Below, one piece after another: positions 23,301 to 26,300 of a stretch of DNA of 35,570 nt. The position numbers were made by a program. Each line of letters opens with the position of its first letter. Position 1 is the first letter of the stretch. Origin of the DNA: Escherichia coli (lineage in GTDB: Bacteria > Pseudomonadota > Gammaproteobacteria > Enterobacterales > Enterobacteriaceae); the NCBI RefSeq assembly GCF_003334385.1, contig NZ_QOWN01000045.1; one strand, 5' to 3'.

Positions 23301-26300
23301 CGGGCGCTGCTGACCGAAGGCGTTTCCCTGCGCGATATCGTCACCATCGCCACCGTGCTGGTCGCCAGTAGCACGGTGACGAAAGATCATATTCTGCTGG
23401 CGGCCGATGTGCGCCTGGCATTGCGGCGCAGCATTACCCATCCGTTCGTTCGCAAGCAGGAGCTGACGGTGTATACGCTGAATAATGAGCTGGAAAATCT
23501 GCTGACCAACGTGGTGAATCAGGCGCAACAGGGCGGGAAAGTGATGCTCGACAGCGTGCCGGTCGATCCGAATATGCTCAACCAGTTCCAGAGTACGATG
23601 CCACAGGTGAAAGAGCAGATGAAAGCGGCGGGGAAAGACCCGGTGCTGCTGGTGCCACCGCAGCTGCGCCCTTTGCTGGCGCGTTATGCAAGGTTGTTTG
23701 CGCCGGGGCTGCATGTGCTGTCGTATAACGAAGTGCCGGATGAGCTGGAGTTGAAGATTATGGGGGCGTTGATGTAAGTATCCAGCATTGGTGCACAACT
23801 GCCGGATGCGGCGTGAACGCCTTATCCGTCCTACCGTTCAGGCACAAGTTTGTAGGCATGATAAGACGCGCCAGCGTCGCATCAGGCATCTGCGCATAAC
23901 TGCCGGATGCGGCATAAACGCCTTATCCGGCCTACCGATCCGGCACAAGTTTGTAGGCATGATAAGACGCGCTAGCGTCGCATCAGGCATCTGCGCACAA
24001 TTATGAAATGATACGCTCCCCGGCACTAAAATCCGTTACGTCCCCCGCCCAATCGATGGGATATAACCCTCGCGCGACATCGCGATGGAACGTTGAGAAT
24101 GGCCAATCACTCACTTGCTTTACCCAACCATGCTTTACTGGATTTATATAAATATAATCAACATGATGCCTATAATCTTTGGTATTGCGGATGGCGTGCT
24201 CCCAAAAACGTGGTTGCCAGATATTTTTCAATCCACAAGCATGGGTAAATTGCTTTTTAATTTCCCGCCAGCGCGAGGAAAAATCATCATCGCCTTCAGG
24301 TAATGTCCAGATACAGTGCATATGCTCTGGCAAAACGACCCAGGCGTTGATTTCAAAAGGCCTGTCTCGCTTAACTTTAATAATGGCGTGACGGAGCATC
24401 TGGTACTGGGTGGTCAAAAGTTGGCTTCGACGATTTCGTAAATTCACCGTGAAAAACCATGTTCCCCCCTTGATGTAATAACGACGATATTCAGACATGG
24501 CGACTCCTTTTTCTCAACGGTAAGAAGAAAAGGAAAGGTTGGCAATGAGGTTGTTTTATATCGGGAAAGCGGCTCGCAAATATTCGCGGGCTCGTAGGCA
24601 TGATAAGACGCGCCAGCGTCGCATCAGGCACCTGCGTACAACTGCCGGATGCGGCGTAAACGCCTTATCCGTCCTACAAAATCGTCTCTTCCGTCAAAAT
24701 CCTGCGCGCGCCCAAAAAATGGTCCTGCCAGAAAGGTTCGGCTAATCGGCTTATCCGAATGGTTTCGCCGGTACGTGGCGACTCGATAAATTGCCCATCG
24801 CCCAAATACACGCCCATATGATCGGCTATCTCGCGGCTGTGGATATGGAAAAACAGCAAATCTCCCCGGCGCAGGTCGTTGTTCGCCACAATCGTTGCCC
24901 GGCGATAGTGGTACATCTCATTGGCCGTGCGCGGGAGCTTAGCCTCAAGGATCTTGTTGTAGGCATAAAAAACCAACCCGCTACAGTCAAAGCCTTTATC
25001 AGGCCGCGTACCGCCCCAGACGTAAGGCTTGCCAAGCTGCTGCTCCAGGCGGTGAATCGCCACTTCGGTAATGTTATGCAGATGGTCGCTGCTTAAAAAG
25101 TGGTTGTTTTCCGCCAGCGCCTGCCAGCGTCTGTCACTCGCCTTGAGCGGAGCAGGAAACCATTCTGGATGCTGTTTTATCTGCTCCCGGTTGTGCTGGC
25201 GTAGCGCCCTTTTGCTTTCGGCATTGCCTTCCACAATATAGCTGGCCTGCTTTTTCAGATGAGTTTGGTACTGTTTTAATAAACGCGCACGGTTTTGCAT
25301 CCGCTGGCGGGCGGCGTAGCTGAAAGAGATATGTGATGTGGTGGCGCTGGCAAATGAAGAAAACGGCAAACAAATCAACAGTAATCCCGACAATACAAAG
25401 GATGGAATCGACGGCAAGGACATACTCAATAATGGCTGGTCATGCTTTAATGTTGCAGTGTATCCCGGATCGTTTCTGAACAAACTTAATAAACCATTAT
25501 TATAAAATTAACATATATATTTCAGTTAATTATGTAAAAACATCCGTTTATTAAATTACTCATGGATTGTCGCTGTTGCTCATTTGAGCTACAATTCAAG
25601 CTGAATAAATATACAGCACAGGAGATACCCCAATGGCTGCTAACGCGTTTGTTCGCGCCCGAATCGATGAAGATCTGAAGAATCAGGCAGCGGACGTACT
25701 GGCCGGGATGGGGCTGACCATCTCTGACCTGGTTCGCATAACCCTCACAAAGGTCGCGCGTGAAAAGGCATTGCCGTTTGATTTACGCGAGCCTAATCAA
25801 TTAACCATTCAATCAATCAAAAACAGCGAAGCTGGCATTGATGTTCATAAGGCCAAAGACGCCGATGATTTATTTGATAAATTAGGAATTTAAATATGAT
25901 TCAAAGGGATATTGAATACTCGGGACAATATTCAAAGGATGTAAAACTTGCACAAAAGCGTCATAAGGATATGAATAAATTGAAATATCTTATGACGCTT
26001 CTTATCAATAATACTTTACCGCTTCCAGCTGTTTATAAAGACCACCCGCTGCAAGGTTCATGGAAAGGTTATCGCGATGCTCATGTCGAACCGGACTGGA
26101 TCCTGATTTACAAACTTACCGATAAACTTTTACGATTTGAGAGAACTGGAACTCACGCGGCGCTCTTTGGGTAAAGCCCGCTTCCGATGAAATTTGTAAA
26201 CCCTGCGCCGACAGGCTTGCGTAAAACTCTTTTGGTGATAATGTGAGCCTTCCAAATCCAGACTATTCCGATTTGGGATCCATTTTGCCGTCCTGGCGTG

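What the first reader, a model, noticed from the sequence alone, without database searches (positions are those of the whole stretch)
23780..24680. REPtron: rayT bracketed by REP clusters, plus a third REP cluster at 27865-28012
The REP-associated tyrosine transposase gene is flanked on both sides by REP arrays sharing the units GCCGGATGCGGCGTnAACGCCTTATCCG and TGTAGGCATGATAAGACGCG. A further array lies between yafJ and gmhA. The same REP units generate several spurious ORF-track entries sharing the peptide RHDKTRQRRIRH.
Basis: partly seen in the sequence, partly recalled or inferred. Interest (0 to 1): 0.25.

Follow-up and report, generated by a model that had tools for sequence, protein, structure and literature searches.

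The report
The known E. coli rayT REPtron
This is the textbook Escherichia coli K-12 "REPtron": the domesticated transposase gene rayT (yafM/tnpAREP) flanked by its own short palindromic repeats, with an ordinary repeat cluster nearby. It has already been described, crystallised and compared across strains.

Summary
The 165-aa ORF at 24001-24498 (-) is 100% identical to the crystallised E. coli TnpAREP/RayT (PDB 4ER8). It passes NCBI's REP-associated tyrosine transposase model and keeps the published active-site residues.

It is flanked by BIME-2 arrays of alternating y and z2 REP hairpins, each preceded by GTAG. Four REPs (two 101-nt units) lie on the lfhA side, which is 3' of rayT. Two lie on the yafL side, 5' of rayT. 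A y-z2-y cluster sits between yafJ and gmhA. These nine are the only REPs found in the 35.6-kb window.

The window is 99.975% identical to MG1655, with no gaps, over 11.9 kb.

- rayT is present in 66% of genomes, essentially single-copy and always at this locus.
- Elsewhere it is replaced by hicAB or deleted.
- The 3' array varies from 2 to 8 REPs. The 5' BIME and the yafJ-gmhA cluster are nearly invariant.

This reproduces Ton-Hoang et al. 2012 at larger scale. The variation does not show that RayT caused it. Nothing here is new, so interest is low.

The parts
23801..23834 (-). y REP (GTAG foot on the - strand). Outermost REP of the array 3' of rayT, 24 nt after the lfhA stop codon.
   Evidence: Consensus scan, 1 mismatch. 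Folds as GTAG plus an imperfect hairpin, -8.9 kcal/mol, z = -2.8.
23852..23888 (+). z2 REP (GTAG on the + strand). With the neighbouring y REP it forms one BIME-2 unit.
   Evidence: 0 mismatches. Hairpin -9.7 kcal/mol, z = -3.3. Rfam naRNA4 RF02564 hit at 23855-23932 (-), 77 bits.
23902..23935 (-). y REP, in the second 101-nt unit.
   Evidence: 2 mismatches. Hairpin -10.9 kcal/mol, z = -3.9. 101-nt tandem period, 88% identity between units.
23953..23989 (+). z2 REP proximal to rayT, 11 nt before the rayT stop codon.
   Evidence: 1 mismatch. Hairpin -9.7 kcal/mol, z = -3.3.
24001..24498 (-). rayT (yafM, tnpAREP, b0228): REP-associated tyrosine (Y1/HUH) transposase, 165 aa, intact.
   Evidence: 100% identical to PDB 4ER8 over residues 1-165. 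NCBIfam NF047646, 179 bits against a cut-off of 80. H59-M60-H61, Y115, N119, H123 and E161 are all present (residue roles). RefSeq annotation.
24594..24630 (+). z2 REP of the single BIME-2 located 5' of rayT, 95 nt upstream of the rayT start codon.
   Evidence: 0 mismatches. Hairpin -9.7 kcal/mol. Rfam naRNA4 hit at 24597-24674 (-), 73.3 bits. Direct repeat of 23852-23935, 94% identity.
24644..24677 (-). y REP of the 5' BIME-2. Its GTAG contains the TAG stop codon of yafL.
   Evidence: 2 mismatches. Hairpin -8.9 kcal/mol. The - strand reads ...ATT TTG TAG GAC.
27872..27905 (-). Degenerate y REP, on the yafJ side of the yafJ-gmhA cluster.
   Evidence: 3 mismatches to the y consensus. No stable hairpin: -3.7 kcal/mol, z = -0.04.
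27923..27959 (+). z2 REP of the yafJ-gmhA BIME-2.
   Evidence: 1 mismatch. Hairpin -9.7 kcal/mol, z = -4.7. Rfam naRNA4 hit at 27926-28003 (-), 74.1 bits.
27973..28006 (-). y REP. Its GTAG begins 7 nt after the gmhA stop codon.
   Evidence: 2 mismatches. Weakened hairpin, -7.0 kcal/mol, z = -1.9. The - strand reads TAA GTCTGGC GTAGGCCGG.

Best explanation
This is the canonical, already characterised REPtron of E. coli K-12.

What is shown here. rayT encodes a single-domain HUH/Y1 nuclease related to the IS200/IS605 TnpA transposases. It sits at its one conserved chromosomal locus, between yafL and the flagellar pseudogene lfhA (flhA/fhiA). On both sides it is flanked by BIME-2 elements, which are y and z2 REPs in alternating orientation.

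What published work on this exact protein shows. RayT binds single-stranded REP DNA. It recognises the 5' GTAG tetranucleotide and the imperfect hairpin with its AA/GC mismatch. It cleaves at CT dinucleotides on either side through a 5'-phosphotyrosine on Y115, and it can join strands. A C-terminal tail (E161) sits in the active site and auto-inhibits the enzyme.

What is inferred. RayT is a domesticated enzyme that acts in trans on the several hundred REPs of the genome and does not move itself.

The yafJ-gmhA cluster is an ordinary BIME-2 in the 3' untranslated region of gmhA. By analogy with tested REPs, it is expected to act as an RNA 3' stabiliser and/or a partial Rho-dependent terminator.
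For: - Protein identity with PDB 4ER8; NCBIfam equivalog hit; catalytic residues present (roles).
- The window is colinear with MG1655: 99.975% identity over 11,908 nt with no gaps. MG1655 annotates rayT as b0228 between yafL and lfhA.
- There are nine REPs with a GTAG foot in y/z2 alternation. Seven of the nine fold as the canonical mismatched hairpin.
- rayT is present in 3,575 of 5,426 complete genomes. The median is 1 copy and the maximum is 2.
- The locus alternatives are hicAB replacement, or loss of rayT with the BIMEs retained. These match Ton-Hoang et al. 2012, who reported 74 of 110 genomes with rayT, a constant single BIME on the 5' side and a variable 3' side.
- Biochemistry and structure are published for this protein.
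- Evidence on REP function in 3' UTRs comes.
Against: Nothing contradicts the identification.
- Pfam's Y1_Tnp model (PF01797) matches only weakly, E = 0.082. The relationship to IS200/IS605 therefore rests on structure and literature rather than on that profile.
- RayT activity in vivo in E. coli has not been demonstrated. A mobilome study found no circular REP intermediates.
- The 3'-UTR role of the yafJ-gmhA cluster is inferred from other REPs and was not tested at this site.
Confidence: 0.97

Rival explanations
1. The differences in REP copy number next to rayT are produced by RayT itself: cleavage at CT sites followed by strand transfer or rolling-circle addition of BIME units. On this view the 3' array is a record of RayT activity in cis.
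For: - The 3' array is much more polymorphic than the 5' BIME or the yafJ-gmhA cluster. It has 2, 3, 4, 6 or 8 REPs in the sampled strains. In contrast, all single-piece matches on the 5' side span exactly 501 nt, and 33 of 39 sampled matches at yafJ-gmhA span 900-901 nt.
- RayT adds REP units to BIME substrates from this very locus in vitro.
Against: - Arrays of 6 and 8 REPs occur where rayT is deleted (L011) or carries W53* (L007), although they could have expanded before rayT was lost. The shortest array is in O157-like strains with W99*.
- The L003/L004 variant is a 31-nt deletion between CGGC microhomologies, which is typical of slippage across a hairpin.
- Changes of one 101-nt unit are expected of any tandem repeat.
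- Every sampled row at 100% identity has the same array length: 7 of 40 rows and 9 of 60. So nothing points to recent activity.
- Published estimates put REPIN duplication at roughly once per 10^8 generations, and no circular intermediates were found.
Confidence: 0.25
2. The array polymorphism, and the loss of rayT itself, come from host processes. These are replication slippage and RecA-dependent unequal crossing-over between the 84-101-nt direct repeats. RayT plays no part at this locus.
For: - There are 101-nt tandem units at 88% identity, and an 84-nt direct repeat at 94% identity on the two sides of rayT.
- Strains lacking rayT retain exactly the y-z2-y arrangement expected from recombination between the flanking z2-y blocks (L008).
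- A microhomology deletion is present in L003/L004.
- The yafJ-gmhA cluster loses exactly 101 nt in a minority of strains.
Against: - It does not explain why linker sequences and REP subtypes differ between strains. Examples are GTCG-footed z2 variants in L005/L007 and a short z1-like REP in L002.
- It does not explain why the 5' BIME is invariant in length while being a similar repeat. That BIME is a single unit, however, so it has no tandem partner.
Confidence: 0.6
3. The whole unit (REPs plus rayT) is an active IS200/IS605-type insertion sequence that transposes as a block.
For: The gene is bracketed by subterminal hairpins, and the nuclease has the HUH/Y1 motifs. This architecture resembles IS608.
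Against: - rayT has a median of one copy per genome in 3,575 genomes, and all 30 sampled rows have one place per record.
- Wherever the flanks were examined, the locus lies between yafL and flhA.
- The few second copies and plasmid copies are on 214-242-kb laboratory K-12 plasmids. I infer these are F-primes carrying this chromosomal segment.
- There is no tnpB gene.
- The Pfam Y1_Tnp match is below threshold.
- The literature reaches the same conclusion.
Confidence: 0.01

Closest known systems
E. coli K-12 MG1655 REPtron (rayT / yafM / tnpAREP, b0228); Nunvar et al. 2010, Ton-Hoang et al. 2012, Messing et al. 2012 (PDB 4ER8)
   Same: Everything matches: protein sequence, locus and neighbouring genes, and number, class and orientation of the flanking REPs. 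L001 has the same six REPs in mirror orientation.
   Different: Nothing in the REPtron itself. Over the 11.9 kb compared, the window differs from MG1655 by 3 substitutions. The alignment ends where MG1655 annotates an IS1 insertion in crl.
BIME-2 / Rfam RF02564 naRNA4 (the REP325 cluster)
   Same: Each y+z2 pair matches the full 77-nt naRNA4 model at 73-77 bits, against a gathering score of 59.5. The alternating y/z2 architecture is the same.
   Different: There are 1-2 units here; one search lists REP325 as nine REPs (REP325a-i). A Rfam hit only shows the sequence is a BIME-2. It does not show that an HU-binding RNA is made here, and a 2026 preprint questions the nucleoid role even for REP325.
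IS200/IS605 family (IS608, ISDra2) TnpA Y1 transposases
   Same: HUH plus a single catalytic Tyr. Single-stranded hairpin substrates with a 5' guide-like tetranucleotide. The gene is bracketed by hairpins.
   Different: Single copy and immobile. The ~25-aa auto-inhibitory C-terminal tail is absent from IS200/IS605 TnpA. [quoted passage not shown] The Pfam Y1_Tnp score is below threshold.
REPIN-RAYT systems of Pseudomonas (Bertels & Rainey)
   Same: A single-copy, vertically inherited RAYT gene with REP doublets in inverted orientation.
   Different: E. coli RayT belongs to 'group 2'. Its REPs are organised as y/z BIMEs that are often tandemly amplified, rather than as isolated REPIN doublets.

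Membership tests
REPtron (RayT/TnpAREP plus cognate REPs) | Encodes a RayT-clade Y1/HUH nuclease | tested here: met
   Identical to 4ER8 TnpAREP. NCBIfam equivalog NF047646 scores 179 bits against a cut-off of 80.
REPtron (RayT/TnpAREP plus cognate REPs) | HUH motif, catalytic Tyr and the RayT-specific C-terminal extension with metal-binding Glu | tested here: met
   H59, M60, H61, Y115, N119, H123 and E161 are present. Their roles are taken from Messing et al. 2012.
REPtron (RayT/TnpAREP plus cognate REPs) | Gene flanked on both sides by REPs with a 5' GTAG foot, in both orientations | tested here: met
   Four REPs lie 3' and two lie 5' of rayT, alternating in strand, all with GTAG.
REPtron (RayT/TnpAREP plus cognate REPs) | The flanking REPs belong to the class dispersed genome-wide | tested here: met
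The rayT body alone hits a median of 1 place.
REPtron (RayT/TnpAREP plus cognate REPs) | Single copy at one conserved chromosomal locus; not itself mobile | tested here: met
   Present in 3,575 of 5,426 genomes, median 1 copy, maximum 2. It lies between yafL and flhA in every locus examined.
REPtron (RayT/TnpAREP plus cognate REPs) | The enzyme binds, cleaves and joins single-stranded REP DNA | not testable with these tools
   Published for this exact protein and for BIMEs from this locus.
BIME-2 | y and z2 REPs in alternating orientation, repeated in tandem with short linkers | tested here: met
   The y units are 34 nt and the z2 units 36-37 nt, with linkers of 14 and 17 nt and a period of 101 nt. 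Rfam RF02564 gives 3 hits.
BIME-2 | Each REP folds as an imperfect hairpin with a conserved internal mismatch | tested here: met
   Seven of nine fold as GTAG plus a stem with a 2x2 internal loop, z = -2.8 to -4.7. The REP at 27973-28006 is weakened and the one at 27872-27905 is degenerate.
IS200/IS605 insertion sequence | Significant match to the Y1_Tnp (PF01797) transposase profile | tested here: not met
   E = 0.082, 13.5 bits, partial match only.
IS200/IS605 insertion sequence | Multiple copies or variable locations, showing transposition of the whole element | tested here: not met
   Median one copy and a fixed locus. The plasmid copies are on large laboratory K-12 plasmids that I infer carry this chromosomal segment.

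The most novel reading that the evidence does not exclude
The array 3' of rayT could be a preferred cis substrate of RayT, so that its strain-to-strain polymorphism (2-8 REPs, variant linkers, GTCG-footed z2 copies) is a natural record of RayT activity in vivo. That activity has never been shown directly in E. coli. On the same reading, the invariant 5' BIME, whose GTAG supplies the yafL stop codon, would be held constant because it couples yafL translation and termination to rayT expression.
Probability: 0.12. Interest if true: 0.35.

Novelty: already known. Interest (0 to 1): 0.05.

Why it matters
As an annotation it is correct and useful. It explains three spurious ORFs. It also warns that REP arrays get called as 'hypothetical proteins': RefSeq does so inside the array of strain D8.

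Scientifically it adds nothing beyond Nunvar 2010, Ton-Hoang 2012, Messing 2012 and Corneloup 2021. The only increment here is scale.
- The published picture from 110 genomes holds in 5,426 complete genomes. That picture is rayT in about two thirds of strains, replacement by hicAB, deletion with BIMEs retained, a constant 5' BIME and a variable 3' array.
- rayT has acquired independent nonsense mutations in at least two lineages.

Whether RayT moves or amplifies REPs in living E. coli remains the open question. Sequence comparison alone cannot make it testable.

Tried and rejected
1. My first REP scan, a fuzzy-regex best-match search, missed two of the nine REPs. I replaced it with an exhaustive Hamming scan.

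2. My z1 consensus was recalled from memory and matched nothing. The short REP in L002 (GTAGGCCGGATAAGCGCAAGCGCATCCGGC) and the indel-bearing z2 variants in L005, L007, L008 and L011 were found only by eye. REP counts for those strains are therefore hand-corrected.

3. I tried using BLAST match spans as a proxy for array length across all genomes. This was only partly usable. The tool joins REP hits from the far side of rayT into one 'place', producing artefactual spans of about 999 and 1078 nt. Only single-piece rows were interpreted.

4. The Pfam scan gave only a sub-threshold Y1_Tnp hit. It is unhelpful for membership and is superseded by NCBIfam and the PDB match.

5. The sigma-70 promoter and intrinsic-terminator scans found no more sites than in shuffled sequence, and none in the BIMEs. 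REPs lack a T-tract, so this says nothing about REP-dependent termination.

6. I considered and rejected the idea that the element is an active IS200/IS605.

7. I considered and rejected the idea that the RHDKTRQRRIRH ORFs are real genes. The shared peptide is one frame of a 36-nt DNA repeat. The ORFs overlap the 3' ends of rayT, yafL and gmhA. The fourth z2 copy falls in another frame because the 101-nt period is not a multiple of three.

Full report
**Observation**

The sequence between 23780 and 24680 is as described. A looser pattern for the REP foot, GTAGGNNNGATAAGNCG, finds the same nine sites and nothing else in 35.6 kb.

An exhaustive consensus scan resolves them as follows. The strand given is the one carrying the GTAG.

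| Cluster | REPs |
|---|---|
| lfhA side, 3' of rayT | y 23801-23834 (-), z2 23852-23887 (+), y 23902-23935 (-), z2 23953-23988 (+) |
| yafL side, 5' of rayT | z2 24594-24629 (+), y 24644-24677 (-) |
| yafJ-gmhA | y 27872-27905 (-), z2 27923-27958 (+), y 27973-28006 (-) |

The left array is two 101-nt units at 88% identity. An 84-nt z2-linker-y block recurs as a 94%-identical direct repeat on the two sides of the gene.

Folded as single-stranded DNA, seven of the nine REPs give the canonical structure: an unpaired GTAG, then a stem interrupted by a 2x2 mismatch (z = -2.8 to -4.7). The REP at 27973-28006 is weakened, and 27872-27905 no longer folds.

The three + strand ORFs that share RHDKTRQRRIRH exist. 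The peptide is one reading frame of the z2 REP. The fourth z2 copy is out of frame because 101 is not a multiple of three.

**What it is**

The 165-aa ORF at 24001-24498 (-) is identical over its whole length to the protein of PDB entry 4ER8, 'TnpArep'. It scores 179 bits on NCBI's equivalog model for REP-associated tyrosine transposases, against a cut-off of 80. Pfam's IS200-type Y1_Tnp model matches only at E = 0.08.

All published active-site residues are present: H59-M60-H61, Y115, N119, H123 and the auto-inhibitory E161 (roles from Messing et al. 2012).

The window aligns to MG1655 coordinates 246000-257907 in reverse orientation, at 99.975% identity with no gaps over 11,908 nt. There the gene is annotated as rayT, b0228, between yafL and the pseudogene lfhA. 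The MG1655 locus carries the same six REPs in mirror image. The third cluster lies between the genes RefSeq calls yafJ and lpcA (gmhA).

Rfam adds that each y+z2 pair matches the naRNA4 family, which is built on the REP325 BIME-2 cluster, at 73-77 bits.

**How it works: shown and inferred**

Shown elsewhere, for this exact protein and for BIMEs from this very locus:
- RayT binds single-stranded REP, but not the complementary iREP or duplex DNA. Binding needs the GTAG and the stem mismatch.
- It can recombine BIME fragments so as to add REP units (Ton-Hoang et al. 2012; Corneloup et al. 2021).
- In the crystal structure the C-terminal tail sits in the active site, and its removal greatly increases cleavage.

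Inferred, and still unproven in vivo: RayT is a domesticated enzyme that acts in trans on the genome's REPs. A mobilome study found no circular REP intermediates.

For the yafJ-gmhA cluster and the yafL-rayT BIME, the most likely role is that of other tested REPs: an mRNA 3' stabiliser and a partial Rho-dependent terminator. This follows from their position in the 3' untranslated regions of co-directional genes. It was not tested at these sites.

I ran it against 5,426 complete E. coli genomes.
- The rayT body is present in 3,575 genomes (66%), with a median of one copy and a maximum of two.
- The rare plasmid copies are on 214-242-kb plasmids of laboratory K-12 strains. I infer these are F-primes that carry this chromosomal segment.

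Where rayT is absent, the locus takes one of three forms:
- It holds hicA-hicB instead (L010; rows H29-H37).
- It keeps BIMEs without the gene (L008 and ATCC 25922 = L011).
- It holds neither (L009).

In rayT-bearing strains the 5' side always has one BIME. All single-piece matches span exactly 501 nt, and every one of L002-L007 has one z2+y pair. The 3' side varies (the last four counts hand-corrected by eye for REPs the scan missed):

| Strain or locus | REPs in the 3' array | Note |
|---|---|---|
| O157-like (L006) | 2 | rayT has W99* |
| L003 | 3 | plus a truncated y |
| L004 | 3 | plus a truncated y and an extra z2 overlapping the flhA stop codon |
| window / K-12 | 4 | |
| L005 | 4 | |
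| L002 | 6 | |
| L007 | 8 | rayT has W53* |

The yafJ-gmhA cluster is nearly fixed. Of 39 evenly sampled locus matches, 33 span 900-901 nt. A minority lack exactly 101 nt (L012), or carry a different palindrome instead (L013).

All of this was reported from 110 genomes by Ton-Hoang et al. 2012: 74 of 110 with the gene, hicAB replacement mostly in clade B1, precise loss in B2, a single BIME on the 5' side and a variable 3' side.

**Does the variation show RayT-mediated expansion?**

No. Several observations count against reading it that way.
- Long arrays occur where rayT is deleted or carries a nonsense codon. They could, however, have expanded before the gene was lost.
- The L003/L004 variant is a 31-nt deletion between CGGC microhomologies.
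- Unit-length gains and losses are what tandem 101-nt repeats do by slippage or unequal crossing-over.
- The y-z2-y arrangement left in rayT-less L008 is what recombination between the 94%-identical flanking direct repeats would produce.
- Every sampled row at 100% identity carries the same array length as the window: 7 of 40 rows and 9 of 60. The arrays look inherited within clades rather than actively changing. This fits published estimates of extremely slow REPIN duplication.

On the other side, differences in linkers and REP subtypes between clades are not simply explained by slippage. Examples are the GTCG-footed z2 variants and a short z1-like REP. A RayT contribution therefore remains possible. 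I put it at about 0.25.

**Comparison with known systems and verdict**

This is not a relative of the E. coli REPtron. It is the E. coli REPtron. Every defining feature that could be tested was met.

It works like an IS200/IS605 TnpA but is not a member of that family. It is single-copy and immobile, it scores below threshold on the family profile, and it carries a RayT-specific inhibitory tail.

Novelty: already known. Interest: very low. The first reader's annotation is right, and the proposed check has already been done in the literature and is reproduced here.

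Noticed in passing
window 23855-23932, 24597-24674, 27926-28003 (- strand): Rfam RF02564 (naRNA4, nucleoid-associated ncRNA from REP325) scores 73-77 bits on each y+z2 unit, against a gathering score of 59.5. In practice the family is a BIME-2 model and will flag BIME-2s genome-wide.
   Followed up: partly
window 24674-24677 and 28007-28016: The yafL stop codon TAG lies inside the GTAG foot of the y REP at 24644-24677. The gmhA stop codon is 7 nt from the GTAG of the y REP at 27973-28006. In strain L004 the flhA stop codon also lies inside a z2 GTAG. These sites belong to the 'REP within 15 nt of a stop codon' class, which has been proposed to affect translation (mentioned).
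   Followed up: partly
window 34007-34127 (-): There is a full-length Rfam hit to group-II-D1D4-2 (RF01999), 81.8 bits against a gathering score of 36. It lies just upstream of an ISAs1/H-repeat transposase ORF (32757-33893, -) and next to an RHS core C-terminal fragment (34694-35566, -). It may be a group II intron remnant in an Rhs/H-rpt element.
   Followed up: partly
L009 476-585 and L013 360-483: In some strains the REP clusters at both sites (flhA-yafL and yafJ-gmhA) are absent. In their place is a different GC-rich palindromic element, CCCTCTCCC...GGGAGAGGG followed by AGAAAA. Its identity was not established.
   Followed up: no
L006 623-1120; L007 914-1411: There are independent nonsense mutations in rayT: W99* in an O157:H7-like strain and W53* in strain D8. 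RefSeq flags both as pseudogenes.
   Followed up: partly
L007 574-732: RefSeq annotates a 'hypothetical protein' (WP_153275555.1) lying entirely inside the REP array. Similar 'hypothetical protein' labels appear in rows H117-H119.
   Followed up: no
window 22038-23777 (+): The flhA-like ORF is 579 aa here. RefSeq flags it as a pseudogene (lfhA) in K-12-like strains, missing its N-terminus, whereas strains such as L005 and L010 have a 2094-nt intact flhA. It is a remnant of the Flag-2 lateral flagellar cluster.
   Followed up: no
window 9968-10040 (-): Rfam finds a tRNA gene, 71.8 bits. From its position relative to MG1655 it should be thrW, a known integration site. This is an inference and was not checked.
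   Followed up: no
plasmid records H243-H249: rayT at 100% identity is found on 214-242-kb plasmids of laboratory K-12 strains. I infer these are F-prime plasmids carrying the proAB-lac chromosomal segment. That would explain the genomes with two rayT copies.
   Followed up: no
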